Source: a virus
Lineage: Duplodnaviria > Heunggongvirae > Uroviricota > Caudoviricetes
Direction: 5' to 3' (one strand)
IMG/VR virus record: IMGVR_UViG_3300032167_000069
DNA length: 64,000 nucleotides
How positions within the stretch are numbered: position 1 is the first letter of the stretch; the number at the start of each line of letters is the position of its first letter. The notes below the pieces were generated by a model. That model did no database searches. It worked only from the letters and a program-made list of their open reading frames with translations, and was not told the DNA's origin. Positions 3,956-45,096 of this stretch are shown one piece after another. A program made the position numbers and the translations under genes.

Positions 3956-5035
3956 TTATTCATCGTGCTTTAACAAGAATAAAGGATCGACGGCTTTAAA
4001 GCTCTGCTTACCGTCTTTACTTCTAAAAACCAAACCTTCTCTCAAAGTTTCGTGAAGTTGGCTCTGACCGTGAGCATAATCAAGAACCTCATTGACTGTA
4101 TCTGGTAACACATAATCTGTTGCAATAATAGGAACAAATTTCAAACCGTGTTGATTACAAATACTCTGAGCGGTTAAAGAATTCATCCTGCCTGTTGGAT
4201 AGATTAAATTAAATATGTATAAATCAGGCTCAGTAACCTTATACTTATTGCCTTGTACATTGGATGCAATGCATTCACCTTGTAATGCAATCCAATCTCT
4301 ATCACCAATCATATTCTTTAATGCGTTTTCAATTTGATATCTATCTGAAACACGCCAATATGATGAGTTATCTTTTGCTCCCAGTCTAAGATTTCTCGAA
4401 CAAACTATGTATTCAAACTTATCTTTTATTAATGGAATCCTTGATTTGTGACGTACTAAACAGAATGTTCCGCTTTGACCATCAATCTTTTCTGTAACAA
4501 TCCATTCCCTTTTGTCGTTTAGTATAAATGGCATATTTTGAATTCGTGTTTCATCTGTCTTACTAATGAAGTCAGGAAAACCTTTCTTTTGTTTTTTAGG
4601 TAACACAAGCTTTCTAAACCATTTAAACCTCATCAGAAATTTAGGGTACTTCTTAGCTTTGGTAGATACTTCGCTTCCCTCTGTTTCCCTATCCATTGTC
4701 TTTTCATATTGTTTAATCCCGATTATTTCTGTAACATCATCTTCGAGTTTGTACTCTCCCTCTGGCAAAATCGAGAGAGGAAAACAAATACCCTGAGAAA
4801 TCACACCTGCCATTTTCATCGTTTTAATTCTGTAATTATTTTTGCTTAAAAACTCAAATTCAGGCTTCGCAGGCAAAACAGAATCGATTTCAACGTAAAC
4901 GCATTTGTCTCCAATTTTAAACTCATCCTTTTTAACAATTACGCTCCAACCATCGACCATAGCCAAAACTATCCTGTCTTTACCTTCTATCGGAATGATA
5001 TCCGAGATAGCCTTAATGCTTGCCAATTTTCTCAT
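3956..5035 (-). CDS. ATP-dependent RNA ligase family nucleotidyltransferase
   Basis: TEKIDGQSG is a KxDG motif I of covalent nucleotidyltransferases. Its size and its neighbourhood with a kinase/HD enzyme suggest an RNA-repair ligase. Confidence 0.55.
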   Translation of the reverse strand: MRKLASIKAISDIIPIEGKDRIVLAMVDGWSVIVKKDEFKIGDKCVYVEIDSVLPAKPEFEFLSKNNYRIKTMKMAGVISQGICFPLSILPEGEYKLEDDVTEIIGIKQYEKTMDRETEGSEVSTKAKKYPKFLMRFKWFRKLVLPKKQKKGFPDFISKTDETRIQNMPFILNDKREWIVTEKIDGQSGTFCLVRHKSRIPLIKDKFEYIVCSRNLRLGAKDNSSYWRVSDRYQIENALKNMIGDRDWIALQGECIASNVQGNKYKVTEPDLYIFNLIYPTGRMNSLTAQSICNQHGLKFVPIIATDYVLPDTVNEVLDYAHGQSQLHETLREGLVFRSKDGKQSFKAVDPLFLLKHDE

Positions 5036-5614
5036 TTAATCATTTCCTTCCTTTGATAGTATTTCATCGAGTGTTACAGGTTCGTAATCCCAATACATAC
5101 ATCCAACGTTATATATGCGATTTTGAAAACCTGCATCATTTAATGTTTTTGCTATTTTTCTCTCTTCTACTGCCTCAGCCGTAGTGTGAGAATGACCGTG
5201 CAAATGAACTGTGCCATAATAATGTCCGTTATACATTGGCATAAAATAATGGCTTAATATACATCTTTGCTTATTACCATTTTCAAGAGTAACCACTATG
5301 TCATCGTAGTCTTTTATCCCGGCTAAACATTTCTTTGCCTTTGCATTATGTAAAAATTTATCGTGATTACCTTTGATTAGAATTATTTGACCATTTAATT
5401 GATTTAAAATATCTGAAGCATCATTATTACGAGTTGACCAAATTAAATCGCCTAAAACATACACAAGGTCTCCCGGTGATACTTTTTTATTCCATCTACG
5501 AATTAATTCTGCATCCATCTCCTCTACTGATGTAAAGGGTCTATTATCAAATCTTAGGACATTTGAATGTCCGAAGTGTAAGTCACTTGTAAAAAACACT
5601 TTTTGCTTTTGCAT
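5036..5614 (-). CDS. Metallophosphoesterase
   Basis: DLHFGH, GDL, GNHD and HGHSH motifs. Confidence 0.6.
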   Translation of the reverse strand: MQKQKVFFTSDLHFGHSNVLRFDNRPFTSVEEMDAELIRRWNKKVSPGDLVYVLGDLIWSTRNNDASDILNQLNGQIILIKGNHDKFLHNAKAKKCLAGIKDYDDIVVTLENGNKQRCILSHYFMPMYNGHYYGTVHLHGHSHTTAEAVEERKIAKTLNDAGFQNRIYNVGCMYWDYEPVTLDEILSKEGND

Positions 5615-5625
5615 ACTTTCACCTC

Positions 5626-6528
5626 TTAATGTGCTTCTCTATCGCACTCATGCAACATCATAATGTCATCATAAAACTGCTCGCCCAACAACTTCTTATA
5701 ACGTTTCTTTGTTTTTTCGAGAACCCAAAAATACGGAGCCATATGCCACTGTATATATGCGGCTCTTGATAAAACTTCTAAAGTATTTGAAACGCCACCC
5801 TGTTCAAACAAACTCATATATGCTGAAACGTGATGATGTTCATAATAATGTGCGACTCCATCTTTAAACGATTGTGTGTAAACCTTACCAATATCGTGTA
5901 ATAATGCAGCCTCTTTTAAGCTATCTACAAAAGTTGAACCACACATTATCTTATAGCAGTCATACATATGTTCACCGAGCGAAAGGCTGTGATGTGGATT
6001 CTTTTGGTCAAAGTCATATAACAATGAAGTTTTGTTAATCAAACCTTCAATATTATTTCCTGCACAATATTCGTCTGGATAACATAATTGAATATCATTC
6101 CAACCCTCATACCAATATGGTGTATAAAAAGCTCTGACCATTTTCCATATTACTTCTTTATCAACGACCCTGCTTCTCTGCTTTTGTCTATTGATACACT
6201 CTCTTATGGGTGTAGCCATTACAACAGCTATTGCTTTAAATTCAAATTTGCTTCTTAATTGTTCGAGCAACACCTTACGTCTTTTATAGTTAATGTTTGT
6301 TGCGTCATAGATTACAGACTTTCCTTGTCCTAATGCTGTAATCGTTCTTTTATACATTTCCTCGAAAACTTTAGTATTGTCAGTTTGGTCAGAAGCATCA
6401 CCAAACAATTCTTCTCTTATTGCATCCGAGGATAAAAGTATCGCATTATGTACCTTTGCAAGTTCCTTTGCTTTTTCTGTTTTCCCCGAACCCGGAAGAC
6501 CGACCATTTGAATAAACTTTAATTCCAC
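5626..6528 (-). CDS. Bifunctional P-loop polynucleotide-kinase-like / HD phosphohydrolase protein
   Basis: N-terminal GLPGSGKT Walker A and C-terminal HD motif (LHDIGK). This architecture is found in RNA end-healing enzymes. Confidence 0.55.
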   Translation of the reverse strand: MELKFIQMVGLPGSGKTEKAKELAKVHNAILLSSDAIREELFGDASDQTDNTKVFEEMYKRTITALGQGKSVIYDATNINYKRRKVLLEQLRSKFEFKAIAVVMATPIRECINRQKQRSRVVDKEVIWKMVRAFYTPYWYEGWNDIQLCYPDEYCAGNNIEGLINKTSLLYDFDQKNPHHSLSLGEHMYDCYKIMCGSTFVDSLKEAALLHDIGKVYTQSFKDGVAHYYEHHHVSAYMSLFEQGGVSNTLEVLSRAAYIQWHMAPYFWVLEKTKKRYKKLLGEQFYDDIMMLHECDREAH

Positions 6529-6531
6529 TTC

Positions 6532-7314
6532 CTACACCTCCAGTTCCATCAAAAACGACTTTTTCAACACGTTTATAAGAACATTGTTCATCAACTCCTC
6601 GACCTCGCCGTTAATAGCCAATGGCGTTTTGTTCATATACTCATTTTTCATTTCAATTGTTTCATCAAGCTTTTCTTTGGCTATTTTTCTTGCTTCGTCT
6701 AATGAATGACAACCACGTTTCACATCAATCAAATATTCAGATATTTCTGATTTTAAACACGCTTTATAAGTTTCTCCAGAAATGTATCTGCGTGTGAATT
6801 CGTGCATTCTTAATATGTGATGAAGTTGCTTTGGATCGTAACCATACTTCTGAATTTTCTCCACCAAAGTTGGATACGGATGTTCAAGGGCTTTATACTT
6901 CTCCATACTCATTCCAGCCATACAGTTGACAAATGCATAATTGTTATATCTTGCAATCAATTCTGCGTTATCAAGCATTGGCTGATATAAGGATTTGAAA
7001 GCTTCATTTATAAGGTTGTATTTTGTAAACAAAATTTCTACAAAATTAACATTCTGCTTTTTAAAGCACTCGAACATCAATCGAATATCTTTTAAATCAA
7101 TGTGTTCGTTGGATGGAAGTATAAGTGTAGTGCTTACGGGTTTCTTGTTAAGACAGAAATCTTCAAACGAGGGTAACACAATACATTTGGTGTCTATATC
7201 GCTCCCTTCATACTCCAATCCGTAGTTTTGAGAGCCTTGTAAGAATACGCCTAACACCTTATATCCCAAACCTTCGACATATTGGAAATCTTCATTTAAA
7301 CGTTTATGTATCAT
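6532..7314 (-). CDS. Pol-beta-superfamily nucleotidyltransferase
   Basis: The GS...YGLEYEGSDIDTKC pattern (GS x9-13 DxD). Confidence 0.45.
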   Translation of the reverse strand: MIHKRLNEDFQYVEGLGYKVLGVFLQGSQNYGLEYEGSDIDTKCIVLPSFEDFCLNKKPVSTTLILPSNEHIDLKDIRLMFECFKKQNVNFVEILFTKYNLINEAFKSLYQPMLDNAELIARYNNYAFVNCMAGMSMEKYKALEHPYPTLVEKIQKYGYDPKQLHHILRMHEFTRRYISGETYKACLKSEISEYLIDVKRGCHSLDEARKIAKEKLDETIEMKNEYMNKTPLAINGEVEELMNNVLINVLKKSFLMELEV

Positions 7315-30463: not shown

Positions 30464-30551
30464 TGGCGGAGGGTCAGAGACTCGAACTCTGAAGCCCTTG
30501 CGGACTCGGCAGTTTTCAAGACTGCTGCCTTACCAATTAGGCTAACCCTCC
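30464..30551 (-). tRNA. tRNA-Ser (UGA)
   Basis: Acceptor ggagggt/accctcc, anticodon loop ctTGAaa, long variable arm, CCA. Confidence 0.65.
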
Positions 30552-30716
30552 ATATGGAAGCTTCCCCCGTAGGGAGGTATTACCAACCCACTTGCAAGTT
30601 TGCTGCTTTTTTAATTTAACCCATCCTAAAGCACCTGAAACACTGGGCATCCCGTGAAACCTTTTTTGAGGTGTCACCCTCGGAGTGGAGTACGGGCAAC
30701 GACAATCTCTCCCGAC

Positions 30717-30792
30717 TGGTCTGAGTAGCAGGTCTCGAACCTGCGACCTCGTGTTCCCAAAACACGTGCTCTACCAACTGAGCTATACCCAG
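30717..30792 (-). tRNA. tRNA-Pro (UGG)
   Basis: Canonical D-arm gctcagttggtagagc, anticodon arm cgtgt-ttTGGga-acacg, T-arm gcagg-ttcgaga-cctgc, CCA. Confidence 0.75.
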
Positions 30793-30800
30793 ATATATAA

Positions 30801-30874
30801 GTGTAGACTGACGACTTGAACGTCACCCCTCGACTAACACGAGACTCAGTACTCCCAATTATACGAAGCCTACA
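30801..30874 (-). tRNA. tRNA-like element (degenerate; D and anticodon arms not resolved)
   Basis: T-arm tgacg-ttcaagt-cgtca. Acceptor tgtaggc/gtctaca with a G-U pair. Confidence 0.3.
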
Positions 30875-30877
30875 CTT

Positions 30878-30964
30878 TGGTGCCGCTGACCGGACTTGAA
30901 CCGGTACGGTATTACTACCGAGGGATTTTAAGTCCCTTGTGTCTGCCAATTCCACCACAACGGC
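30878..30964 (-). tRNA. tRNA-Leu (UAA)
   Basis: D-loop gtggaattggcagacac, anticodon arm aggga-cuUAAaa-ucccu, long variable arm, T-arm, CCA. Confidence 0.7.
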
Positions 30965-30967
30965 ATA

Positions 30968-31044
30968 TGGTTGCGGGGGTGGGACTCGAACCCACGACCT
31001 CCAGCTTATGAGGCTGGCAAGCTGACCATCTGCTCTACCCCGCA
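30968..31044 (-). tRNA. tRNA-Met/fMet (CAU)
   Basis: Acceptor tgcgggg/ccccgca, anticodon loop ctCATaa, T-arm gtggg-ttcgagt-cccac, CCA. Confidence 0.7.
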
Positions 31045-31049
31045 ATATA

Positions 31050-31132
31050 TGGTGCCCGTAGCAGGACTCGAACCTGCACTCTCACGAACTGGTTCCTAAG
31101 ACCAGCGTGTCTGCCAATTCCACCATACGGGC
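31050..31132 (-). tRNA. tRNA-Leu (UAG)
   Basis: Acceptor gcccgta/tacgggc, anticodon arm ctggt-ctTAGga-accag, long variable arm, T-arm gcagg-ttcgagt-cctgc. Confidence 0.7.
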
Positions 31133-32864: not shown

Positions 32865-34019
32865 TCACGATAAATCCCCCTTTATTAGCTTTTCTATGTC
32901 TGCGCCAAACTTCTGGTTATTATGAGAAATAACATAGTTTATATAATCTGGCTCAATCATTCTATAATAGGAAATAAGCCCAGCAAATACTTGTACGTCG
33001 TGCCTATCCCAATTAACGTTTTTCTTTTTGTCGCAAATATAATTGCAACACATAGCTTTGAATGCTTTTTTCTTTTGATGACCAATGGTTATCTCGTTAT
33101 CTTTGTTAAGCATAACACCCAAATTCCAGTTCCGACCAGCGGATGAACCGTATCTCGTTTTTTCTTTTTTGATTGCAAATGGAGCATCAAATCTTTTCAG
33201 AACATCGAGAACATATTCCTGCACCGCTTTGTAATCAAAATTCACTTTTGATGAAATCAAAATATCATCAGCATATCGTGTGTAAACAAAATGCTCGTCC
33301 ATCTTCCTTAAATCATTACAAAGTTGATGGTCGATTGGAATCATCATAATATTGGTGATTGTCGGCGATATAGGTGTTCCCTGTGGCAAACCGCCGTTTA
33401 AAAAACAAAGACTCAAAGCTCTTTTTAAGGCTTCGAGTCCATTTCTTCTTTTCACTATTTCACTAAACGGGAATATTTTTGAAAACATTGATAACACAAA
33501 CTCCTCTGTTGTGCTACCAAAAAAGTCCGAGAAATCAAGTTTTGCGAACCATTTACTTTCGTTCTGCTGATGTCTCTTAATTGAGTCAATTGTGCATCTA
33601 CCTTTTACATATGCAAAAGCAGATGTATGATACAATGCAAACATATTCTTTTCAAAAATAGTTTTCAAATTACGCAATGCATTCATCAATTCAGGTACAG
33701 GTGCATTAATTTCTCTCAAACCGCCACTTTTCTTTGGTATATGGAACGTTTCATACAGCGACTTCCTATCTACCTCAAATAAATTTGCATATTGAGAATT
33801 AAACTGTTCAAGAGCATAAATCATTGCGTTAAAATTGAATTTATCAAGAAATTTTTCGTTTAACTGCTCTCTGTAATGTGTTCTTGTGTTTGTTACATTG
33901 GGCACAATCATTCTTGATACATCAACCGCACCCGCCAGAATATCATCTAATGATAACTGATAATATATTGGCGATTGTTGAATTGTTACATAAGGCATAC
34001 TAATTCTCCTTTCGTACAT
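32865..34019 (-). CDS. Reverse transcriptase, retron/Abi-like type (not DGR type)
   Basis: IPKKSGGLREINAP (RT motifs 1/2), AKLDFSDFFGS (motif 3), GLPQGTPISP (motif 4), YTRYADDILISS (motif 5, YADD). KTRYGSS...NLGVMLN...IGHQKKKAF follows the pattern of the retron region after YADD. AYVKGRCTIDSIKRH sits at the NAxxH position. At 384 aa it has no maturase or endonuclease domain. Confidence 0.75.
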   Translation of the reverse strand: MYERRISMPYVTIQQSPIYYQLSLDDILAGAVDVSRMIVPNVTNTRTHYREQLNEKFLDKFNFNAMIYALEQFNSQYANLFEVDRKSLYETFHIPKKSGGLREINAPVPELMNALRNLKTIFEKNMFALYHTSAFAYVKGRCTIDSIKRHQQNESKWFAKLDFSDFFGSTTEEFVLSMFSKIFPFSEIVKRRNGLEALKRALSLCFLNGGLPQGTPISPTITNIMMIPIDHQLCNDLRKMDEHFVYTRYADDILISSKVNFDYKAVQEYVLDVLKRFDAPFAIKKEKTRYGSSAGRNWNLGVMLNKDNEITIGHQKKKAFKAMCCNYICDKKKNVNWDRHDVQVFAGLISYYRMIEPDYINYVISHNNQKFGADIEKLIKGDLS

Positions 34020-34059
34020 ACTGTAATCTACAAGATATATAAGCGTCTATGCAGCACGA

Positions 34060-34290
34060 GATGCTAAGCTTTTGCTGGTAACTTGGTCATCAGTGAGATG
34101 AGAGTTCATCTGATGAAAACCCAGTATTTATGCGGTATTTCTCTATTGATGGATTTGGGCAGACCTGTCGGGAAGCGTAAGCCACGGCTGTGGGTGATTG
34201 CCATCCTGAGCTGTCTCCCTGTGTTTTTCTCCAGCAAAGTGTTACTTTGGCTTATAACACAAAGCATCTGAAAACTCAGATTATTCATTA
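34060..34290 (-). ncRNA. Structured GC-rich ncRNA locus B, immediately upstream of the RT start (retron msr/msd-like position)
   Basis: Conserved module at 34216-34262. Inverted repeats cttttgctgg (34069-34078) and ccagcaaag (34221-34229) bracket about 160 nt. Several GC hairpins are present. The ORF 34106..34288 is a translation of the repeat. Confidence 0.5.
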
Positions 34291-34305
34291 CAAGTATGTT
34301 AATAT

Positions 34306-34545
34306 TTATTCATAACATTCATCTAAATCCTCATTGTCTATATTCACCTCTGAGTTGTCTTGTTCTACGTGAATATAGCAATAGGAATCTCCGCATATTG
34401 CAATTTTTGCTTCTGGCGGATAATTATTTAATTGTTCGATTAACTGTTTTACAGTTGTGTTTGGCAAGAAAACTTTTCTGTTTGCATCATACATATCATC
34501 TCTCCTAAATTTCATCAATATCGCAAGTCCATTGACGCCATTCAA
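34306..34545 (-). CDS. Hypothetical small protein
   Basis: 79 aa, between ncRNA loci C and B. Confidence 0.35.
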   Translation of the reverse strand: MNGVNGLAILMKFRRDDMYDANRKVFLPNTTVKQLIEQLNNYPPEAKIAICGDSYCYIHVEQDNSEVNIDNEDLDECYE

Positions 34546-35224: not shown

Positions 35225-36106
35225 TTATATTGTTAATATTGAAAAAAGTTCTTCTTCAGACACATCTTCGTACACGATTTCAGTTTGGATTACATCATAA
35301 TAACCCATATCGTCTGGTTCGTCACTTATAAGGATTTCAGGATTGATTTTCAAAGCGGGACGGACACCCAAAATGCCATCATACGCACTGCAATAGTAGT
35401 AATCACCGCCACGACTGACGTACCTGACGCCGCAACCACCGCCGGCATCGGGAGAACGGAGCAAATAATACCAGTTCTCGTCATATTCCACTTCTTCATC
35501 AACATTAGAATATTCTACGGCGTAATCAGTGGGCATAGCGGCTCTATCTGCATTTATTTCATTTTTAAAATATTCCCAGTAATCACCTTCGGACACGTTT
35601 CTTATTGTTCCACCGTACAAATTGGTGTATGAAGGCAGAAATACCTTTCTGGTTATTACGTCAAGTCGCTCATCTTCACGGGTCACTTCGCAATCAGGAA
35701 GTGCCGTCATTACCGTAGAATCATCTATTGCATCAATTTCCCAGCCCTCAAAAAATCTCAAGAAGCCGTGATGATTTGCATATCCTGTGTTTCCTGAAAC
35801 CAAATTTCCTGTGGGTGGCTCATCGTATTCGTGGCGTTTAATAAAGCATTCATCATCGCTACTGTTTAAAAACTGGTCGATATTTGATACCGAGTAGCGA
35901 TTATTACCATAACGCTGACGATAAGCATCGGGGTTTTCCACTTCTCTCGCATCGAATGCACGGAAATCCTCAATCCTTTCTGACATAAAGGTATTATCTC
36001 CGTTTACCTTTATCCAAGTAATCTTATGAGTACCCTCATCGCCAATACTATACGCACCAAAACGCACCTTTTCGCCAACATTGAGTTCGCTTATTCTTCG
36101 TGCCAT
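35225..36106 (-). CDS. CLec/FGE-fold protein with a DGR-variable-region-like C-terminus (putative receptor-binding/adhesin-type protein)
   Basis: The C-terminus NWYYLLRSPDAGGGCGVRYVSRGGDYYYCSAYDGILGVRPAL resembles FGE/CLec-type DGR target ends (LRS...RGG...GxRP/C.). It is Y/S/G-rich. Confidence 0.5.
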   Translation of the reverse strand: MARRISELNVGEKVRFGAYSIGDEGTHKITWIKVNGDNTFMSERIEDFRAFDAREVENPDAYRQRYGNNRYSVSNIDQFLNSSDDECFIKRHEYDEPPTGNLVSGNTGYANHHGFLRFFEGWEIDAIDDSTVMTALPDCEVTREDERLDVITRKVFLPSYTNLYGGTIRNVSEGDYWEYFKNEINADRAAMPTDYAVEYSNVDEEVEYDENWYYLLRSPDAGGGCGVRYVSRGGDYYYCSAYDGILGVRPALKINPEILISDEPDDMGYYDVIQTEIVYEDVSEEELFSILTI

Positions 36107-40401: not shown

Positions 40402-41964
40402 TTACCCCCTCAAAACATCTTCGATTGGCTGGTATCTTTCCGAGTTGATTGTTTCAAGTAAACATTCATACGGGTCTGTCTTTCCGCTCATAACCATTTT
40501 ACAAATATTTACCGAAAATCCACTCACGAGAGCAACGCCCAGCTTGTTACTTCTCACCGGAATTGTTCCCGTTCTTGAATTAACATTCCAGAAAACAAGC
40601 CTTGGCAATTCATAGCCAACCTGCTTATATCTTGCACCAATTACATCGAACAACTTATCGTTTTTAATTGCATAGTCGCAATTATATCTTCCGCCGTGTC
40701 CAACAGTTGCACAACCATCAAATTCCATATCAGAAATAATCAGGATGTTCTTCGGCATATCTTCCTGTGCCATATTGTTATTAACCGCAGTTTTCAAAAT
40801 TAAGTCAAATACTGCTTCGATATTTGTATTGGCAACTTCGTTATGCTGAGCCGCAATAGCCAATTTATCTCTCAGGCTATTAGCGTGTCCAAAGTCAACC
40901 AATTGTGGACGTTCAGAGAAAGTAATATATTTATCTTTTAGGCACCCCGAAGACCTTTCTGCGAAATATACAGCCAAGCTGTTAGCAACTTCAAGAGCCG
41001 TTACATTTGTGCCACCTACTGTTGTTCTCATAGAACCAGAACCATCAGCTACAACAATTGTGTTTCCGCAACCCTCAACCATATCAGGAAGATTGTTCCA
41101 GAGAGCTTCAACAGAAGCATCATAATCCTTTAACTGATTTCCATAGTATCCGTAACTACCAGCATAATACTTGTGAACAATGTCGTGCGGATAAAGTGTT
41201 GCCGCATTGATTTTTGCTTCGCCATTTTCAATTTTGCCGAGAAACTCTCTTCTTCTTTCCTCGTCGTTTCTTAAAAAGGCATTATTATAAATAAGGTTTG
41301 CACGTGACGGAACCGTTTCATAGTTGATTTCGCCCCACTGCTTTGCAGACATCTTAATTTCGACAACATCAATGTGTTTGCGAAGCTTACTCAAAAGCTT
41401 ACGATAGTCAGCCTCTTTGATATCTAAGTGCTTACGAATTATTTTTGAAAGTTTTTTACTTTCCTCTGAAGACGCATTTGCTGACGGAAGCCATTTTGCT
41501 AACAATGAGATTGGCTTGCCATTTTCGCACCCCTCGACGTCAGCTTTAAGCTGTTTCTTTATGTATTCAATAACCGCACCGCAAAGTTTTTCGTTTTCAA
41601 GGAAAACCCACAAATCATCGAATCTTCCGTATTCTGCAACAAGCGGAATAAGCTTTTCGGCAAAATCGGATTCGTATTCAGCAACAAATTTCATCGCCGT
41701 TCTGAACAATCTACGCTCACCCAAACCACCACGGACATCTCTTGCAAAGAAAAGCCATTTCATAGCAAGGATTTTATCCTCAAGAAATGCTGCCGCAAAC
41801 TTCTTTGCAATACCCTCTTCGCTTGCTGAACGCAACGATGCAACCGCAAAATTGATGTCAAGCAAATTCTTGCCGGTTGTTTTATAACCAAGTGCACCGT
41901 TTTCTGTTGTGGATGTGTTGAAATCTTCAAGTGCAGTTTCTTTTAACTTCTCAATAAATGACAT
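40402..41964 (-). CDS. Helical N-domain + C-terminal vWA (MIDAS) protein; Ro60/Rsr-like (TROVE-like + vWA) architecture
   Basis: A C-terminal vWA domain with a MIDAS motif (TIVVADGSGSMRTT ... ILIISDMEFD). An N-terminal helical domain of about 330 aa. Total of 520 aa, matching Ro60/Rsr domain order and size. TROVE identity was not verified. Confidence 0.45.
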   Translation of the reverse strand: MSFIEKLKETALEDFNTSTTENGALGYKTTGKNLLDINFAVASLRSASEEGIAKKFAAAFLEDKILAMKWLFFARDVRGGLGERRLFRTAMKFVAEYESDFAEKLIPLVAEYGRFDDLWVFLENEKLCGAVIEYIKKQLKADVEGCENGKPISLLAKWLPSANASSEESKKLSKIIRKHLDIKEADYRKLLSKLRKHIDVVEIKMSAKQWGEINYETVPSRANLIYNNAFLRNDEERRREFLGKIENGEAKINAATLYPHDIVHKYYAGSYGYYGNQLKDYDASVEALWNNLPDMVEGCGNTIVVADGSGSMRTTVGGTNVTALEVANSLAVYFAERSSGCLKDKYITFSERPQLVDFGHANSLRDKLAIAAQHNEVANTNIEAVFDLILKTAVNNNMAQEDMPKNILIISDMEFDGCATVGHGGRYNCDYAIKNDKLFDVIGARYKQVGYELPRLVFWNVNSRTGTIPVRSNKLGVALVSGFSVNICKMVMSGKTDPYECLLETINSERYQPIEDVLRG

Positions 41965-42076
41965 AAAAAATCCTCCTTTTGATTTATATAAAATCCCAAG
42001 ACGGATTTCTGAATAATAGATTAAAAGTCTACTCCAAAAATGATTGCTGTTACCGTCTTTAGGATTTTTTATTATA

Positions 42077-42224
42077 GGTGGGGATGGTAGGATTTGAACC
42101 TACGAAATCTTCTTGATTTACTGTTTTATGAAAAAGATTGCTGTTGGTGTCAAACTAAACACCTTTCATTAGACAATTTCCTTCAGCCACTTGGATACAT
42201 CCCCAAATATTTAATTATCATCCT
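42077..42224 (-). ncRNA. Oversized tRNA-like ncRNA (about 148 nt) with class-II D-arm, T-arm and acceptor, plus an internal insert carrying the AACAGCAAT motif
   Basis: Acceptor ggggatg/catcccc, D-arm tcc-aagtggctgaa-gga, variable hairpin aaatc-aagaa-gattt, T-arm gtagg-ttcaaat-cctac. The insert contains the ggtgtttagtttgacacc hairpin followed by aacagcaat. Confidence 0.5.
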
Positions 42225-42420
42225 CACAACAAATATGAACCACAAGCTCATTGCCTTGATTTATATCAAACCTGCTGTAATCGAAGATGACTTTCCGGAC
42301 TTTATAACGTTTATTCTCAAAGATTACTGTATCACCAACACTTGGCACTGGATAACTTGACGATGAACTTTTATATCCGCCAATTGCATTTCCTTTGTTA
42401 TAAATCATAATACTAAACAT
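42211..42420 (-). CDS. Small hypothetical protein
   Basis: Starts at the internal Met MFSIMIYNKG... The listed N-terminal extension reads through the tRNA-like gene. Confidence 0.35.
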   Translation of the reverse strand: MFSIMIYNKGNAIGGYKSSSSSYPVPSVGDTVIFENKRYKVRKVIFDYSRFDINQGNELVVHICCEDDN

Positions 42421-42449
42421 CTTCTTGCCTCCTTGAGTTATGATAATTA

Positions 42450-42571
42450 TGGTGAGGGTGGCAGGACTCGAACCTACGACACACGGCTCCCAAAGCATTA
42501 AGAATATTGCTGTAAGCGTTTATCACTAAACACATTCTTATACGTTGCTCTGCCAACTGAGCTACACCCTC
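42450..42571 (-). ncRNA. Oversized tRNA-like ncRNA (122 nt) with the GTGATAAAC...ACAGCAAT insert
   Basis: Acceptor gagggtg/caccctc, canonical D-arm gctcagttggcagagc, T-arm, encoded CCA. A 45-nt structured insert (helix taagaat/attctta; hairpin gttta-gtga-taaac; acagcaat) replaces a normal anticodon arm. Confidence 0.5.
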
Positions 42572-42588
42572 ATATAAAGATGGCATTG

Positions 42589-42701
42589 TGGAAGATTGAG
42601 GAGTTGAACCTCAAAGCTAAAGTTTTTTCAGAACTCTTCTTGTAAAGTTGCTGTATGCGATTGCCATCCATTTCGCTTATGTTGCTGTAACCGACTCTTC
42701 C
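42589..42701 (-). ncRNA. Oversized tRNA-like ncRNA (113 nt) with two ACAGCAAC motifs
   Basis: Acceptor ggaagag/atcttcc, T-arm tgagg-ttcaact-cctca, no encoded CCA. The internal sequence ggttACAGCAACataagcg...catACAGCAAC carries the motif twice. Confidence 0.4.
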
Positions 42702-42793
42702 ATATTTCAAGGCACCCTAAGACTTATGCTTGTCTTAAAAAATTTTTAAAATCTGTAGCATTATATATCTTGCTGTGAGTGCCTTTTCAATGT

Positions 42794-43180
42794 TTACTCA
42801 ATAATTTCCAACTTCATAAAAATATCGCTTGGAACATTACCTTTCCAAACGAACTCATTTTTCAGAATGAAATTGTTATATGCCGAAGCTGTTTTGTTAG
42901 CTCTCATTTTTGCCTGCTCAGCCCACGATTGTTTTTCTTCGCTCTCGGAATTTTTATACTGCTCATATGTAAGTTTATCCGACTCGTATGAAGTAATCAT
43001 TGACCTGCAAGTATCTTCAACCTGCTTAATTGTTTCGTAATTTGTTGCATCATCTGCTTTCTGAACCTGAAAGAAGTATGTGTTAATAACACCTCTACCA
43101 GCAGGTGTTATTGCGAACACTCCAAAACAAATCAGAAGCACACAAAGTATAGCAACAACTATTGTTGATACCTTTCCCAC
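42794..43180 (-). CDS. Membrane-anchored hypothetical protein
   Basis: 128 aa with an N-terminal TM helix. Confidence 0.4.
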   Translation of the reverse strand: MGKVSTIVVAILCVLLICFGVFAITPAGRGVINTYFFQVQKADDATNYETIKQVEDTCRSMITSYESDKLTYEQYKNSESEEKQSWAEQAKMRANKTASAYNNFILKNEFVWKGNVPSDIFMKLEIIE

Positions 43181-43182
43181 TC

Positions 43183-43776
43183 TTATTCACCAACTTTCAA
43201 AATTGGATTGTCTATTTCAAACGGAATGTCGGAATATAAGTATGTCCCCGTCCATTCAACATACTTACCATCGGGCGTAAAGAAGAAAATTCCTGCATCA
43301 TTTTCGCCATAAGAACCGTCAACATCTGCCAACCATTCACTGTAACTTGCTGCATATTCCTCGCTATCAGGTGTAAGATAGCTATTCAAACTACTTACCT
43401 TGCCGTCAACAATAAACTTTTCTACAACAGCACCGCTTGTTGTGAATAATGCAATATAACCCAACGGCTTTTCAATTTCGCACACAAGTGCATTTGCTTT
43501 TTCTCTCTGACCGTTAACCCAATACGCTCTGCGAATTAAGTTGTATCTTTCCAACGAATAGTTGATATCCGTAGGTGTAGGCTGATTAGCCTGCAAATTA
43601 TTTGACACCTGTTTAGTGTTTGCCTGATCGCTGTAGCTTCCGCTCATTTCGCACCCGGCACAAACTCCAACCACTAAAACAAGCGCCAGTACAATTCCTA
43701 AAATCTTTTTCATACTCCAACTTACCGCCTTTCTACATAAAACCCTTATTTTATAAATGGAATTCCTACAAGACAC
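43183..43776 (-). CDS. Lipoprotein / secreted hypothetical protein
   Basis: Signal peptide and Cys-rich lipobox region (LVVGVCAGC). Confidence 0.45.
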   Translation of the reverse strand: MSCRNSIYKIRVLCRKAVSWSMKKILGIVLALVLVVGVCAGCEMSGSYSDQANTKQVSNNLQANQPTPTDINYSLERYNLIRRAYWVNGQREKANALVCEIEKPLGYIALFTTSGAVVEKFIVDGKVSSLNSYLTPDSEEYAASYSEWLADVDGSYGENDAGIFFFTPDGKYVEWTGTYLYSDIPFEIDNPILKVGE

Positions 43777-44167
43777 AAAAAGCTTTTATAATCCCAAATT
43801 ATATGCATTAAATATTGCTGCGTGTGTCTTTAAAAGGTATATATCAATCCGCAAATGCGGTTATTGTTGAATGTTGGGTAAGTTTTTGCTTACCCGACGG
43901 AATTTCACCGTCCCATTACTCTAAAACCCGACCACCCATTACATAATCTACGAAAAGTTATGTAAAATGCCTTTGAGTAAATTGAACTTCACAAAAATTA
44001 GAAACGAGAGGCTAAAAAGTTTCAGAAAGGAGATGCTACTTCTTAGACCAAAAGAAGTATTTGCGCTGTGTTATGCCAAAAACTGACAGCAAAGCAAAAT
44101 CAAAAAATTTGTAAATTTGATAATATGTTTTATTATGTATTTGCTGTAAGCCTCTCTTATATGTTGA

Positions 44168-44286
44168 GCGGCGGGTGAGAATCGAACTCACGACACATAG
44201 TTTGGATTCTTGAAAAAATCGCTGTTAGTGAAGTTTATCACTCCACATTTTTTCGACTATTATTCTACCATCTGAACTACCGCCGC
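44168..44286 (-). ncRNA. Oversized tRNA-like ncRNA (119 nt) with the GTGATAAAC...ACAGCGAT insert
   Basis: Acceptor gcggcgg/ccgccgc, D-arm gttcagatggtagaat, T-arm gtgag-ttcgatt-ctcac. The insert has an 8-bp helix gaaaaaat/attttttc, then hairpin gtggag-tgataaa-cttcac, then aacagcgat. Confidence 0.5.
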
Positions 44287-44290
44287 ATAA

Positions 44291-44409
44291 GGTGCCCAGA
44301 GTTGGACTCGAACCAACGACCACGGAGTTACCAGCTCAATATAAAGTTGCAGTTTAAGGCTTTTTCAAACCTCAATTATTACGTGCTCTACCGACTGAGC
44401 TATCTGGGC
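44291..44409 (-). ncRNA. Oversized tRNA-like ncRNA (119 nt) with the GAAA-tetraloop hairpin plus AACTGCAAC insert
   Basis: Acceptor gcccaga/tctgggc, canonical D-arm gctcagtcggtagagc, T-arm gttgg-ttcgagt-ccaac. The insert is aggttt-gaaa-aagcct followed by aaactgcaac. Confidence 0.5.
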
Positions 44410-44428
44410 AAATTTAATGGTGGCTTTT

Positions 44429-44573
44429 GTGGGACGCCTGAGAGTTGAACTCAGGAGCAATATGTAGCTAATGCCACACATTCTTCATATCTATCTTTAA
44501 ATAAGTTATACTTGTAAGTTTGCTGTTAGTGTTCGCCACCCTATACACCATAAAGCTGTACCCTACCGTCCCA
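44429..44573 (-). ncRNA. Oversized tRNA-like ncRNA (about 145 nt) with the AACAGCAAAC motif
   Basis: Perfect 7-bp terminal stem tgggacg/cgtccca and T-arm cctgag-ttcaact-ctcagg. The D-arm is not canonical. The internal segment contains aacagcaaac. Confidence 0.35.
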
Positions 44574-45096
44574 TATTGATAATTGCAAAGAAGTCGTTTT
44601 CGTCAATCGGAGCGGTATTGAAATCGTCCCACGAATCACCTGACAATGCAGGCAAAGAAAACAAATACCGTATCACATCATCTGGCACCTCTTCTTTTAA
44701 CCAAGAACTTCCGAATTTATAACCGTTATCATATAACAAATCGGCACTTTCAAGAATTTCACAAACTCTTTTGTAGTCGTTTGCGTAATTGGCTATGTTG
44801 TTTTCCCTGAGAAACTCCATTTGTTTAGGTGTGCCAGCCCTTAAATCGTTTAAATGCCATCGTTTCCAAATTTCTTGGATTTTCTTTAAATCCTCACACT
44901 CGAATCCGTCAGATGGAATCAAACTTTCATCCGTTAAATCATCATAAATTTGACCTTGCGAATGCCAATTACCGTGTATTTTTAAAACGCCATTTCTTTG
45001 AAAGACTATCTGAACACGAAACCTACGGCACCCACCCCAACCAATTTGATAGGCTGGACAAATCAAACGCTTCATATCTCTATTTACTTCAAGCAT
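44563..45096 (-). CDS. Hypothetical protein
   Basis: 177 aa. Confidence 0.45.
   Translation of the reverse strand: MLEVNRDMKRLICPAYQIGWGGCRRFRVQIVFQRNGVLKIHGNWHSQGQIYDDLTDESLIPSDGFECEDLKKIQEIWKRWHLNDLRAGTPKQMEFLRENNIANYANDYKRVCEILESADLLYDNGYKFGSSWLKEEVPDDVIRYLFSLPALSGDSWDDFNTAPIDENDFFAIINMGR

What the first reader, a model, noticed from the sequence alone, without database searches (positions are those of the whole stretch)
42077..44573. Family of six oversized tRNA-shaped ncRNAs with a conserved internal ACAGCAA motif
Six elements of 113-148 nt, all on the minus strand, each have a 7-bp terminal acceptor-type stem and a canonical T-arm; most also have a canonical D-arm. Each carries 40-75 extra nucleotides where the anticodon and variable region should be. 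The inserts are structured and share motifs: GTGATAAAC, hairpins closed by GAAA or UGAUAAA loops, and always A(A)CAGC(A/G)A(T/C) or ACTGCAAC. This motif occurs twice in the 42589-42701 element. The nearby cluster at 30212-31132 encodes ordinary tRNAs of 76-90 nt, so this is a distinct family, not a general feature of the genome. Several explanations fit. They could be intron-bearing tRNAs processed by the phage's own RNA ligase and kinase enzymes. They could be tRNA-mimic (Y-RNA-like) partners of the adjacent Ro60-like protein. They could be decoys for host anticodon nucleases; the motif even contains ACA, the MazF-type cleavage triplet.
Basis: seen in the sequence. Interest (0 to 1): 0.8.

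Follow-up and report, generated by a model that had tools for sequence, protein, structure and literature searches.

The report
tRNA-shaped partner RNAs of phage Ro60-like protein
The six oversized "tRNAs" are real, and their inserts carry a short helix plus ACAGCAA that flanks a Ro60-like RNA-binding protein gene in phages of very different bacteria, so they are most likely Y-RNA-type partner RNAs of that protein and not tRNAs with introns.

Summary
Six minus-strand elements (113-148 nt) have tRNA bodies. Each carries a 40-55 nt insert in or near the anticodon arm.

It is a covarying 7-bp helix (GYGUCUW/WAGACRC), a 2-nt spacer, then single-stranded ACAGCAA. The same unit occurs in three or four non-tRNA hairpins in the same 2.5 kb, in circularly permuted form.

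The adjacent gene (40402-41964, DUF2828+DUF7788) has a Ro60 fold by structure prediction. In 80 loci chosen by protein homology alone, 69 carry the unit on the gene strand, mostly within 1 kb upstream. It also flanks homologues in Enterococcus, Listeria, Staphylococcus, E. coli, Campylobacter, Mycobacterium and Lak phages.

In Enterococcus phage PEF1 the unit sits on RNAs that match Rfam YrlA (E=4e-9). Element 42571-42453 is a circular permutation of one of them.

Best reading (about 0.6): Y-RNA-like partner RNAs in an unpermuted tRNA topology, with the Ro-binding site as an internal hairpin. Excised introns remain possible (about 0.2), because precise deletion restores perfect tRNA-Thr and tRNA-Pro. 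New variant of a known kind.

The parts
44426..44573 (-). Element E1: degenerate tRNA-like RNA (6-bp acceptor stem with one mismatch, canonical T-arm, no D-arm) carrying the helix+ACAGCAA unit. Motif at 44526-44520.
   Evidence: Sequence read. Motif located. Covariance model R1 hit 44517-44550, 17.2 bits, E=0.07; this element was not in the training set. Not called by the Rfam tRNA model.
44293..44409 (-). Element E2: full tRNA body with a 44-nt insert (44381-44338) between anticodon-stem positions 28 and 29. Insert = linker, hairpin GAGGTTT-GAAA-AAGCCTT, AA, ACTGCAA (44353-44347), linker. The anticodon loop CTGGTAA (Thr GGT) is intact.
   Evidence: Rfam tRNA 49.3 bits. Deletion scan gives a unique optimum of 128.3, tRNA-Thr(GGT). 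R1 hit 36.5 bits (this element was in the training set). Conserved in orthologues from loci L006, L001, L002, L054.
44167..44286 (-). Element E3: tRNA body with about 48 nt inserted after position 32 of the anticodon loop. Hairpin GTGGAGT-GATAA-ACTTCAC, TA, ACAGCGA (44225-44219). No deletion gives a clean 7-nt anticodon loop.
   Evidence: Rfam tRNA 48.5 bits. R1 hit 24.6 bits. ARAGORN intron mode calls Trp CCA with an imperfect arm. The deletion scan is ambiguous.
42589..42701 (-). Element E4: acceptor stem plus T-arm plus an anticodon-like hairpin (loop CTGAAAA, Phe GAA), no D-arm. Two ACAGCAA copies (42688-42682 and 42654-42648); the second follows hairpin GCGA...TCGC.
   Evidence: R1 hit 42645-42678, 16.1 bits; not in the training set. 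Not called by the Rfam tRNA model.
42453..42571 (-). Element E5: full tRNA body with encoded CCA and a 46-nt insert (42542-42497) between positions 29 and 30. Hairpin GTGTTTA-GTGA-TAAACGC, TT, ACAGCAA (42513-42507). Intact loop TTTGGGA (Pro TGG). It is a circular permutation of a YrlA-class RNA of Enterococcus phage PEF1.
   Evidence: Rfam tRNA 45.8 bits. Deletion scan unique optimum 121.2, tRNA-Pro(TGG). R1 hit 27.9 bits. Permuted E5 aligns with L211 2626-2766 at 96 identical columns, and that PEF1 RNA matches Rfam YrlA at E=4e-9.
42077..42204 (-). Element E6: class-II-type tRNA body (long variable arm) with about 42 nt inserted in the anticodon loop. Hairpin GGTGTT-TAGTTT-GACACC, A, ACAGCAA (42144-42138).
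   Evidence: Rfam tRNA 44.6 bits. R1 hit 22.2 bits. The deletion scan is ambiguous: Met, Tyr or Leu depending on the boundaries.
41992..42066 (-). Standalone unit in the 5' leader of the Ro60-like gene: AAGACGG-TA-ACAGCAA (42050-42044), about 40 nt, then CCGTCTTG. Inside is an anticodon-stem-loop mimic, GTAGA-CTTTTAA-TCTAT (42032-42016, loop of tRNA-Lys UUU).
   Evidence: The same leader element, with AGACTTTTAATCT, lies directly upstream of the gene in L003, L004, L005, L006, L009 and L054.
42708..42785 (-). Standalone unit: AAGGCAC-TC-ACAGCAA (42776-42770) ... GGTGCCTTG.
   Evidence: Near-identical stems AAGGCACTC / GTGCCTTG occur in L006, L131 and L132.
43769..43831 (-). Standalone unit with a variant motif: AAGACAC-AC-GCAGCAA (43821-43815) ... 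GTGTCTTG. It contains the hairpin ATAA-TTTGGGA-TTAT, whose loop is identical to the anticodon loop of E5 (Pro UGG).
   Evidence: Sequence read. The same TATAA-TTTGGGA-TTATA hairpin appears in the L005 5619 element.
44060..44158 (-). Possible fourth standalone unit: ACAGCAA at 44147-44141, with an inverted copy TTTGCTGT downstream. The closing helix is weak, so this one is uncertain.
   Evidence: only about 5 bp pair. R1 gives 10.8 bits.
40402..41964 (-). Gene for the Ro60-like protein (DUF2828 + DUF7788; helical-repeat ring plus von Willebrand A (vWA) domain with metal-binding motif DGSGSM). Presumed protein partner of the RNAs.
   Evidence: Pfam PF11443 and PF25043. PHROG 850, 'RNA-binding protein'. 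AlphaFold2 with an alignment: mean pLDDT 79.9. Foldseek against PDB: the top 11 hits are all Ro60/TROVE, full length, E=7e-8 to 2e-5, TM about 0.5, including phage phiLo Ro60 (9KOP). Homologues in mycobacteriophages are annotated 'Ro-like RNA binding protein'.
3956..7314 (-). Context only, 35 kb away: an RNA repair cassette. RNA ligase 3956-5035, metallophosphoesterase 5036-5614, P-loop kinase plus HD domain 5626-6528, RlaP nucleotidyltransferase 6532-7314.
   Evidence: Pfam hits. Homologues of the ligase or kinase lie next to the Ro60-like gene in some related loci (L093, L109, L111, L125; L004, L009). RtcB lies near it in Listeria phage LP-048.

Best explanation
The six elements are non-coding partner RNAs (Y-RNA-like, YrlA class) of the phage's Ro60-like protein. 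They are not primarily intron-containing tRNAs.

**The shared unit.** It is a 7-bp helix (5'-GYGUCUW paired with 5'-WAGACRC), a 2-nt spacer and single-stranded ACAGCAA. I infer that this is the docking site for the ring-shaped Ro60-like protein encoded at 40402-41964.

**Two topologies of the unit.**
- Closed by a small loop and grafted into the anticodon arm of an otherwise normal tRNA (E1-E6).
- Formed by the 5' and 3' ends of a short RNA (the standalone hairpins). This is the classical Y RNA layout.

**The second module.** The rest of each RNA is a tRNA body, or only an anticodon-stem-loop mimic. By analogy with Y RNAs, this module would tether the protein to factors that recognise tRNAs or anticodon loops, or gate access to the protein. 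Candidate factors include host anticodon nucleases and RNA repair enzymes.

**Shown:** the unit, its covariation, its two topologies, the Ro60 fold of the protein, the gene-RNA linkage across phages, and the homology to YrlA-class RNAs.

**Inferred:** physical binding, that the insert stays in the mature RNA, and the tether or decoy role.
For: 1. **The helix is real.** 86% of cells are paired against 59% in shuffles, with 140 double-change cells against 46. RNAalifold predicts the helix independently in 14 tRNA-embedded copies, together with the acceptor and T stems.
2. **The hairpin and standalone forms share the same helix consensus and the same fixed spacing to ACAGCAA**.
3. **The neighbouring protein has a Ro60 fold**.
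4. **Linkage tested both ways.**
   - Of 120 loci fetched by the RNA pattern, 36 encode the protein. It is always on the same strand, often with the unit 23-70 nt upstream of the start or 27-95 nt after the stop, though some lie up to several kb away.
   - Of 80 genome loci fetched by the protein alone (41-67% identity), 69 carry the unit on the gene strand. There are 203 units on the gene strand against 30 on the opposite strand, and 153 lie within 1 kb upstream.
5. **The unit flanks homologues at 25-40% identity** in Enterococcus, Listeria, Staphylococcus, E. coli, Campylobacter, Mycobacterium and Prevotella (Lak) phages.
6. **In Enterococcus phage PEF1 and a mycobacteriophage the unit opens RNAs that match Rfam YrlA** (E=4e-9, 4e-6 and 1e-5). 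Permuted E5 aligns to the PEF1 RNA at 96 identical columns, including the anticodon-loop region. That PEF1 RNA has a closed acceptor stem and cannot decode.
7. **Only 10 of 106 hairpin-form units next to the gene can be converted into a good tRNA by any deletion, and 47 of 106 have a T-loop**. E1 and E4 lack D-arms. The two RNAs in Lachnospiraceae COE1 have no canonical anticodon loop.
8. **Standalone units are enriched for anticodon-loop mimics**: 74 of 276 against 17.5 +/- 3.9 in shuffles.
9. **No nuclease gene is consistently linked**.
10. **The window already encodes insert-free tRNA-Pro(TGG) and tRNA-Leu(TAA)**.
Against: - There is no binding or expression data.
- The motif differs from the known Ro60-binding motifs (GGUCCGA; GNCGAAN0-1G; PMC4201824).
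- The window elements score only 17.9 bits on Rfam YrlA, against a gathering score of 69.
- For E2, E5 and more than 15 relatives, one precise deletion restores a tRNA scoring 118-128 with a 5-bp stem, a 7-nt loop, U33 and a purine at 37. That is what selection for a spliced, decoding tRNA would also produce.
- These RNAs have open acceptor ends, and E5 has an encoded CCA.
- The phage carries a complete heal-and-seal ligation kit.
- All characterised Y RNAs carry the Ro60 site in the terminal stem (10.1101/312249). E1-E6 do not.
Confidence: 0.6

Rival explanations
1. The inserts are true tRNA introns. An endonuclease (host-encoded or an unrecognised phage one) cuts at both ends of the insert. 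The phage kinase/phosphatase and RNA ligase then join the halves to give decoding tRNAs (Thr GGT, Pro TGG, Leu, and others). The helix+ACAGCAA unit, possibly bound by the Ro60-like protein, marks or chaperones the splice substrate. This could coexist with a Y-RNA-like role.
For: - The deletion scan gives a unique optimum with scores typical of real tRNAs: E2 128.3, E5 121.2, and 16 non-redundant relatives at 118 or above.
- The anticodon stem covaries across the insertion point.
- The 5' junction is strongly conserved as CG^UA.
- RNA ligase, kinase-HD, phosphoesterase, RlaP and a Thg1-like enzyme are encoded in the window. RtcB or RNA ligase genes sit beside the Ro60-like gene in other phages.
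- 'Enigmatic' tRNA introns have been reported in Lak phages (PMC6784885).
Against: - No splicing-endonuclease family turned up among about 64 window ORFs scanned against Pfam.
- No protein other than the Ro60-like one is linked to the unit.
- There is no conserved helix or bulge-helix-bulge at the junctions: the flanks are A/U-rich linkers with no predicted pairing.
- E1, E3 and E4 cannot be turned into canonical tRNAs.
- Only 10 of 106 units near the gene in other genomes can be.
- The identical unit with an anticodon loop occurs in permuted YrlA-type RNAs and in 70-nt hairpins, where splicing cannot yield a tRNA.
- Anticodons drift between orthologues (GGT, GTT, ATT), including an A34 that is odd for a decoder.
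Confidence: 0.2
2. The RNAs act on their own as decoys or sponges for host tRNA-directed nucleases, such as anticodon nucleases or MazF-type toxins. The ACAGCAA or the displayed anticodon loop is the bait, and the neighbouring protein plays no part.
For: - Displayed loops are dominated by Asn GUU, Thr GGU/UGU and Lys UUU.
- Lys UUU, Thr UGU and Asn GUU are the targets of the PARIS nuclease AriB, which phage T5 counters with its own tRNAs (PMC12409363).
- Several copies per genome sit beside tRNA clusters.
Against: - The tight, strand-specific linkage to the Ro60-like gene across phyla is not explained.
- The invariant part is the helix+ACAGCAA, not the anticodon loop. Only about a quarter of standalone units have a loop mimic.
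- There is no evidence that ACAGCAA is a nuclease site.
- The dominance of Asn, Thr and Lys may simply reflect common descent of one paralogous tRNA family.
Confidence: 0.08
3. The unit is a DNA-level or transcription-level signal (promoter, terminator or processing site, or a small mobile element) that happens to have landed in tRNA genes. On this reading the oversized tRNAs are pseudogenes.
For: - A/T-rich TATAAT-like sequences follow many copies.
- Copies occur in tandem arrays with a period of about 70 nt.
- A TnpB-like ORF sits inside one array in L004.
- The phage encodes its own sigma factor.
Against: - The spacing from ACAGCAA to any -10-like hexamer or to the 3' stem strand is variable (20-85 nt).
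- Promoter-like sites are not enriched in the region.
- Stems differ in sequence but keep pairing. That points to selection on folded RNA, not on conserved terminal repeats.
- tRNA bodies around the insert keep compensatory changes in the acceptor, T and anticodon stems across phages with 35-70% protein identity.
Confidence: 0.05

Closest known systems
YrlA-class bacterial and phage Y RNAs bound by Ro60/Rsr (Rfam RF02553; Chen et al. 2014, PMC4201824; structure preprint 10.1101/312249)
   Same: - Encoded beside a Ro60-fold protein gene, on the same strand.
- Modular: a presumed protein-binding helix with a conserved single-stranded or 5'-strand motif, plus a tRNA-like module with conserved D and T arms.
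- Several copies per locus.
- Relatives of the window RNAs in Enterococcus phage PEF1 and a mycobacteriophage match the YrlA model.
   Different: - YrlA is a circularly permuted tRNA: closed acceptor stem, no anticodon loop, Ro60 site in the terminal stem, motif GNCGAAN0-1G.
- The window RNAs have normal tRNA topology: open acceptor ends (E5 has an encoded CCA), a retained anticodon loop in several, the candidate binding unit as an internal hairpin in the anticodon arm, and the motif ACAGCAA.
- The partner protein is typed by Pfam as DUF2828/DUF7788, not TROVE.
Thermus phage phiLo Ro60 with Yrl1/Yrl2 (PMC12135203; PDB 9KOP)
   Same: A phage-encoded Ro60-fold protein with small RNAs encoded just upstream of its gene. 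9KOP is the best structural match to the window protein.
   Different: The phiLo RNAs are classical terminal-stem Y RNAs identified by a CGAA motif. No tRNA-embedded form is described. Sequence identity to the window protein is only 17%.
'Enigmatic' tRNA introns of Lak megaphages (Devoto et al. 2019, PMC6784885)
   Same: Oversized phage tRNA genes that standard bacterial tRNA finders miss, interpreted as intron-bearing. Lak-A1 also encodes a distant DUF2828 homologue with one standalone helix+ACAGCAA unit 180 nt upstream.
   Different: The Lak intron table held as text contains no ACAGCAA or ACTGCAA (the file was truncated when stored). At least one listed intron is longer (93 nt), so they are probably something else.
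Archaeal/eukaryal protein-spliced tRNA introns, including non-canonical positions (PMC4090602)
   Same: Short inserts (tens of nt) at varied positions in and around the anticodon arm. Precise removal restores a tRNA in some cases. A ligase pathway is available.
   Different: No bulge-helix-bulge motif, no EndA/Sen-type endonuclease found, a bacterial-virus setting, and the same insert unit also exists outside tRNAs.
Phage T5 tRNA variants that neutralise the PARIS nuclease AriB (PMC11464382, PMC12409363)
   Same: Phage-encoded tRNAs (Lys UUU, Thr UGU, Asn GUU) acting in a conflict over anticodon-loop cleavage. The same anticodons dominate the module-bearing RNAs here.
   Different: The T5 tRNAs are normal-sized decoders with point changes. 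No insert and no protein partner are involved. A link to the present RNAs is only a lead.

Membership tests
tRNA (Rfam RF00005) | Cloverleaf scoring above the family gathering score | tested here: met
   E2 49.3, E3 48.5, E5 45.8 and E6 44.6 bits against a gathering score of 29. E1 and E4 are not detected even at E<=5, so the feature is met for four of six.
tRNA (Rfam RF00005) | Contiguous anticodon arm: 5-bp stem and 7-nt loop | tested here: not met
   Rfam places 53-57 unaligned nt inside the anticodon arm. ARAGORN without intron mode misses all six.
Y RNA / YrlA (Rfam RF02553) | Encoded within about 4 kb of a Ro60 orthologue, on the same strand (PMC4201824) | tested here: met
   All six elements and the standalone units lie 30-2600 nt upstream of 40402-41964 on the same strand. 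The same holds in 69 of 80 loci chosen by protein alone.
Y RNA / YrlA (Rfam RF02553) | Partner protein is a Ro60/TROVE ring plus a vWA domain | tested here: met
   Met at the fold level: the top 11 PDB matches are all Ro60, full length, and the metal-binding motif DGSGSM is invariant. Pfam types the protein as DUF2828/DUF7788, not TROVE. A profile search of PDB sequences finds no Ro60.
Y RNA / YrlA (Rfam RF02553) | Ro60-binding motif GGUCCGA or GNCGAAN0-1G in the 5' strand of the terminal stem | tested here: not met
   The conserved element is WAGACRC-NN-ACAGCAA. In E1-E6 it is an internal hairpin, not the terminal stem. In the standalone units it is in the 5' strand of the terminal stem.
Y RNA / YrlA (Rfam RF02553) | tRNA-like module with conserved D and T arms | tested here: met
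   Full tRNA bodies in E2, E3, E5 and E6. The acceptor and T stems covary.
Y RNA / YrlA (Rfam RF02553) | Score on the Rfam YrlA covariance model | tested here: not met
   The best window hit is 17.9 bits against a gathering score of 69, as expected if the topology is permuted. Relatives in PEF1 (45.9-47.8 and 35.7 bits) and a mycobacteriophage (39.8 bits) give significant E-values but stay below gathering.
Y RNA / YrlA (Rfam RF02553) | Physical association with the Ro60-type protein | not testable with these tools
   Needs RIP/CLIP or gel-shift assays.
Protein-spliced tRNA intron (archaeal/eukaryal type) | Bulge-helix-bulge or other conserved structure at the exon-intron junctions | tested here: not met
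   The flanks of the hairpin are A/U-rich linkers. RNAalifold predicts no helix there in 14 orthologues, and single-sequence folds are inconsistent.
Protein-spliced tRNA intron (archaeal/eukaryal type) | Precise removal restores a canonical tRNA | tested here: inconclusive
   Clear for E2 and E5 and for 16 relatives. Ambiguous for E3 and E6, and failing for E1 and E4. Only 10 of 106 units succeed in loci chosen by protein alone.
Protein-spliced tRNA intron (archaeal/eukaryal type) | A splicing endonuclease is available | tested here: not met
   No EndA/Sen-type or other candidate nuclease family among about 64 window ORFs scanned. No linked gene apart from DUF2828. A host enzyme cannot be excluded.
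Group I self-splicing tRNA intron | Match to the group I intron model; size above about 200 nt | tested here: not met
   No Rfam hit in 41900-44700 at E<=5. The inserts are 40-55 nt.

The most novel reading that the evidence does not exclude
These are complete tRNAs that can be processed and perhaps charged, and that permanently carry a docking hairpin for a Ro60-like ring. The resulting complex physically couples the ring and its vWA domain to whatever reads the displayed anticodon loop (Asn, Thr, Lys, Pro). That could trap or redirect host anticodon nucleases of the PARIS/PrrC kind. Alternatively, the complex could itself define the cut sites for a phage version of enzymatic tRNA splicing, completed by the phage ligase. 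Either outcome would be a new mode of phage counter-defence, or the first protein-catalysed tRNA splicing in a bacterial system. It would also assign a ligand and a role to the large DUF2828 family.
Probability: 0.2. Interest if true: 0.85.

Novelty: new variant of a known kind. Interest (0 to 1): 0.66.

Why it matters
1. **A candidate RNA ligand for a large protein family.** DUF2828 'Ro-like' proteins occur in at least 710 deposited phage genomes. These include Felix O1-like, Listeria P100-like, Enterococcus, Staphylococcus, Campylobacter, mycobacterial and Lak phages. The helix+ACAGCAA unit gives this family a concrete, testable RNA ligand.
2. **Y RNAs need not be permuted tRNAs with the Ro60 site in the terminal stem.** The same parts can be wired as an ordinary tRNA with the protein-binding unit as an internal arm. 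That leaves the acceptor end and the anticodon loop free.
3. **An annotation trap.** Such genes look like intron-bearing tRNAs or pseudo-tRNAs, and standard tRNA finders miss or mislabel them.
4. **A possible link to conflicts over tRNA cleavage.** The displayed loops include the anticodons targeted by known anticodon nucleases (Lys UUU, Asn GUU, Thr UGU). This makes a role for Ro60-type complexes in that phage-host conflict directly testable.

Tried and rejected
- **Promoter reading of ACAGCAA.** The distance to -10-like hexamers and to the 3' stem strand is variable, and promoter-like sites are not enriched.
- **A conserved outer helix (P1) formed by the insert ends.** It appears in E3, E5 and the 42050 element but is not conserved.
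- **Bulge-helix-bulge, group I intron or a small self-cleaving ribozyme.** No Rfam hit at E<=5 and no junction structure.
- **Codon mimicry by ACAGCAA pairing with the anticodon in cis.** It is inconsistent across anticodons (inspection only).
- **Solitary CRISPR-repeat mimic and type III antitoxin repeats.** The stems differ between neighbouring copies and pair within each unit, not between units.
- **Retron ncRNA.** The reverse transcriptase at 32865-34019 is retron-type, but the unit tracks the DUF2828 gene and not the reverse transcriptase.
- **Lak phage tRNA introns as the same thing.** The motif is absent from the stored intron table.
- **Structure prediction from the single sequence.** It failed, with mean pLDDT 42. 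Prediction from an alignment was needed.
- **Sequence-profile search of the PDB.** It found no Ro60. Only fold comparison did.
- **First viral pattern scan.** By my own estimate, 100-200 chance matches were expected. Hits were therefore filtered by stem extension, and the linkage was re-tested on loci chosen by protein.
- **Minimum-free-energy folds of single elements.** They were uninformative.
- **TAG recoding.** TAG ends 6 of 59 long stop-to-stop ORFs, so there is no sign of recoding.
- **Literature.** Searches found nothing on DUF2828 RNAs or on this motif. Two Y RNA reviews and Burroughs & Aravind 2016 were not available.

Full report
**Setting**

The window is part of a large phage genome with 37% G+C. 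It encodes a terminase, integrases, a sigma factor, an RNA repair cassette and NAD salvage genes. Its only, weak, DNA similarity to a deposited phage is to phAss-1. Protein relatives come mostly from gut Clostridia assemblies, such as Lachnospiraceae and Oscillospiraceae.

**Checking the observation**

ARAGORN in standard mode finds eight ordinary tRNAs, at 25071-25495 and 30212-31132, and none in 42077-44573.

Rfam's tRNA model does find four elements there above its gathering score. Each has 53-57 unaligned nucleotides inside the anticodon arm:
- 44409-44293
- 44286-44167
- 42571-42453
- 42204-42079

The other two, 44573-44426 and 42701-42589, have a canonical T-arm and a 6-bp acceptor stem with one mismatch. 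They have no D-arm and are not called as tRNA.

ACAGCAA, or a one-base variant, is in each element, and twice in 42701-42589. The total count in the window is unremarkable, 13 against 11.1 expected. However, eight of the ten minus-strand copies fall within 2.5 kb.

**What the conserved unit really is**

Reading the copies side by side, with copies from related phages, shows that ACAGCAA is only the 3' part of a larger unit. The unit is:
- a 7-bp helix, with strands of consensus GYGUCUW and WAGACRC;
- a 2-nt spacer;
- single-stranded ACAGCAA, usually followed by U-rich sequence.

On 58 non-identical copies the helix is 86% paired, against 59% in column shuffles. It has 140 double-change cells against 46, and every one of the nine tested positions shows compensatory changes. 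The register was chosen by pairing, which inflates the paired fraction but not the diversity of pair types.

RNAalifold, run without guidance on 14 tRNA-embedded copies, predicts exactly this helix plus the acceptor and T stems. It predicts no helix between the two ends of the insert.

A covariance model of the unit ranks the six window elements first to sixth, including the two that were not used to build it. It finds no further copy elsewhere in the window.

**Two topologies**

In the six elements the helix is closed by a 4-7 nt loop, and the whole unit sits in the anticodon arm.

The same 2.5 kb also holds three clear non-tRNA copies and one doubtful one:
- 42066-41992
- 42785-42708
- 43831-43769
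- about 44158-44060 (doubtful)

In these the WAGACRC strand and ACAGCAA come first, about 40 nt follow, and the GYGUCUW strand comes last, usually followed by G. Related phages carry tandem arrays of such units with a period of about 70 nt. Each unit has its own stem sequence. The two forms are circular permutations of one another.

A quarter of the standalone units contain a hairpin with a 7-nt loop of the form YU-NNN-R-N. This occurs in 74 of 276 units, against 17.5 +/- 3.9 in shuffles. The commonest loop is CUUUUAA, the anticodon loop of tRNA-Lys(UUU). The copy in the leader of the downstream gene (42032-42016) is one of these. The 43831-43769 copy displays UUUGGGA, identical to the loop of element 42571-42453.

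**The neighbouring protein**

The gene at 40402-41964 matches DUF2828 and DUF7788 and PHROG 850, 'RNA-binding protein'.
- A single-sequence structure model was useless.
- With 39 homologues the model reached a mean pLDDT of 79.9.
- Against the PDB its eleven best matches are all full-length Ro60/TROVE structures. They come from phage phiLo, Xenopus, human and Deinococcus, with E from 7e-8 to 2e-5 and TM about 0.5.
- A metal-binding DGSGSM motif is invariant.
- Homologues in mycobacteriophages are annotated 'Ro-like RNA binding protein'.

**Linkage of RNA unit and gene**

The linkage was tested in both directions.

*From the RNA.* A pattern for the standalone form retrieved 120 viral loci. By my own estimate many of these must be chance matches. 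Even so, 36 encode the protein, always on the same strand. The unit often lies 23-70 nt before the start codon or 27-95 nt after the stop, although in some loci it is up to several kb away.

*From the protein.* Eighty genome loci were chosen only by protein similarity (41-67% identity).
- 69 carry the unit on the gene strand.
- There are 203 units on the gene strand against 30 on the opposite strand.
- 153 lie within 1 kb upstream, with a second peak just after the stop codon.

No other window protein travels with the unit. RNA ligase, kinase and Thg1-like genes are nearby only in some loci.

*At greater distance.* The protein family is present in 710 deposited phage genomes. I fetched nine loci from different phage groups. 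Seven have one to four helix+ACAGCAA units directly beside the gene on its strand: Enterococcus PEF1, Listeria LP-048, E. coli SUSP1, a mycobacteriophage, Staphylococcus, Campylobacter and Prevotella Lak-A1. A Vibrio phage has a possible unit, and an Erwinia jumbo phage has none within 2.5 kb.

**Connection to known Y RNAs**

In Enterococcus phage PEF1 the unit opens RNAs in which the T-arm and 3' acceptor strand come before the 5' acceptor strand and D-arm. The RNA closes with the complementary helix strand. This is the permuted-tRNA architecture of YrlA.

These RNAs match the Rfam YrlA model at 45.9-47.8 bits (E=4e-9) and at 35.7 bits. A mycobacteriophage RNA matches at 39.8 bits. All are below the curated gathering score but highly significant.

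I then permuted window element 42571-42453 in silico, opening the hairpin loop and closing the acceptor stem. It aligns to the PEF1 RNA at 96 identical columns, including the linker 'CG-UAUAA' and the anticodon-loop region. The window elements are therefore the unpermuted-topology counterparts of YrlA-class RNAs.

Published work states the following:
- All characterised Y RNAs carry the Ro60 site in a stem formed by the 5' and 3' ends (10.1101/312249).
- Ro60 mainly reads the 5' strand motif, GGUCCGA or GNCGAAN0-1G (PMC4201824).

The RNAs here differ on each of these points.

**Intron or permanent module?**

*In favour of introns.*
- Enumerating all deletions gives a single best solution with scores typical of genuine tRNAs. 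These are 128.3 (Thr GGT) for 44409-44293 and 121.2 (Pro TGG) for 42571-42453, and 118-128 for 16 non-redundant relatives. The relatives are mostly Asn GUU, Thr and Lys.
- The 5' junction is conserved as CG^UA, and the anticodon stem covaries.
- The phage encodes RNA ligase, kinase-HD, phosphoesterase, RlaP and a Thg1-like enzyme.

*Against introns.*
- No endonuclease candidate and no junction structure were found.
- Elements 44573-44426, 44286-44167 and 42701-42589 cannot be made canonical.
- Next to the gene in other genomes, only 10 of 106 hairpin-form units can be turned into a good tRNA, although 47 have a T-loop.
- An isolate genome, Lachnospiraceae COE1, has two tRNA-like RNAs with the unit and no anticodon loop.
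- The PEF1 RNA keeps an anticodon-type loop although it can never decode.
- Anticodon-loop mimics occur in 70-nt hairpins.
- Insert-free tRNA-Pro(UGG) and tRNA-Leu(UAA) already exist in the window, and 42571-42453 is not a recent copy of the former.

I conclude that the anticodon loop is conserved as part of the RNA's function as a mimic. Excision is possible but not required by the data.

**Likely mechanism**

By analogy with Ro60 and Y RNA, the helix+ACAGCAA unit docks the ring protein. The tRNA body or anticodon-loop mimic then recruits or occupies a tRNA-reading factor.

The displayed loops are Asn GUU, Thr GGU/UGU, Lys UUU and Pro UGG. They include the three tRNAs cleaved by the PARIS nuclease AriB: Lys UUU, Thr UGU and Asn GUU (PMC12409363). 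In several phages the locus sits with RNA ligase or RtcB genes. Both facts point to the conflict over tRNA cleavage and repair. This step is inference only.

**Novelty**

Phage Ro60 homologues and phage Y RNAs are known (PMC4201824, PMC12135203). The following appear to be undescribed in Rfam 15 and in the literature I could search:
- the DUF2828-type signature unit;
- its presence across many phage groups;
- the unpermuted, tRNA-embedded form.

I rate this a new variant of a known kind.

Noticed in passing
window 32865-34019 (-), with the upstream non-coding stretch 34020-34504: The reverse transcriptase here is retron-type (PADLOC RT_II-A, E=3e-50), not the diversity-generating retroelement I first assumed. 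About 485 nt of non-coding sequence with several inverted repeats lies upstream, where a retron ncRNA would be. A DUF6273 gene is at 35225-36106. A retron inside a phage genome may deserve its own look.
   Followed up: partly
window 25074-25166 (-) and 25176-25283 (-): Two unusual tRNAs. One is a tRNA-Gln(UUG) with a 22-nt extra variable arm. The other is a tRNA with loop CUUGAAA (anticodon UGA, Ser) and a variable region of about 40 nt; ARAGORN misses it and Rfam scores it only 34 bits. Neither carries ACAGCAA.
   Followed up: partly
L212 1460-2011 (Listeria phage LP-048, NC_024359.1): A 552-nt match to the large ROOL RNA (90 bits, just under the gathering score of 99.1; E=4e-17). It lies between tRNA genes about 1 kb upstream of the Ro60-like gene, and an RtcB 'tRNA splicing ligase' lies 1.3 kb downstream. 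ROOL, tRNAs, Y-like RNAs, the Ro-like protein and RtcB thus form one neighbourhood.
   Followed up: no
L004 about 4050-5160: A TnpB-like ORF (IS200/IS605 OrfB type, judged from the translated sequence by eye) is inserted in the middle of the array of standalone units and module-bearing tRNAs. It is followed by a stretch that would correspond to its guide RNA.
   Followed up: no
window 44020-44040 (-); L004 about 5305-5325 and 5630-5650: A short conserved string, CTCCTTTCT(N)TGGAAA / CTCCTTTCTGAAAC, recurs in the non-coding gaps between the RNA units in the window and in L004. Seen by eye only.
   Followed up: no
window 3956-7314, 18476-19348, 15987-16715, 20355-21842, 26650-27984 (all -): The phage carries a full RNA heal-and-seal set (ligase, phosphoesterase, kinase-HD, RlaP) and a Thg1-like tRNA 5'-end repair enzyme. 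It also has an NAD+ salvage and synthesis set (NAPRTase, PRPP-synthetase-like, isochorismatase/nicotinamidase, NAD synthase). This profile is typical of phages that face tRNA- and NAD-directed host defences.
   Followed up: partly
window 44563-44573 (-): The stop codon (TAG, 44565-44563) of ORF 44563-45096 lies inside the 5' acceptor strand of element E1, so the gene and the RNA overlap by about 10 nt. Stop-codon usage in the window gives no sign of TAG recoding: TAA 39, TGA 14, TAG 6.
   Followed up: partly
window 42098-42071 (-): A good sigma-70-like site (TTCAAA, 16 nt, TATAAT) overlaps the T-arm and 3' end of element E6. It would start transcription just upstream of the leader unit and the Ro60-like gene. 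In Listeria LP-048 and Enterococcus PEF1, near-consensus TTGACA-17-TATAAT/TATCAT sites precede the first unit.
   Followed up: no
L007 and L008, 12345-12624: A group I intron (Rfam 77-82 bits) lies about 5 kb downstream of the Ro60-like gene in two related viral contigs. These two contigs have no ACAGCAA in the non-coding flanks of the gene.
   Followed up: no
L004 3825-3950 and L009 4928-5052: A module-bearing tRNA whose displayed loop is CUCUAAA (anticodon CUA, amber suppressor type). This is notable because relatives of this phage group (phAss-1) recode TAG.
   Followed up: no
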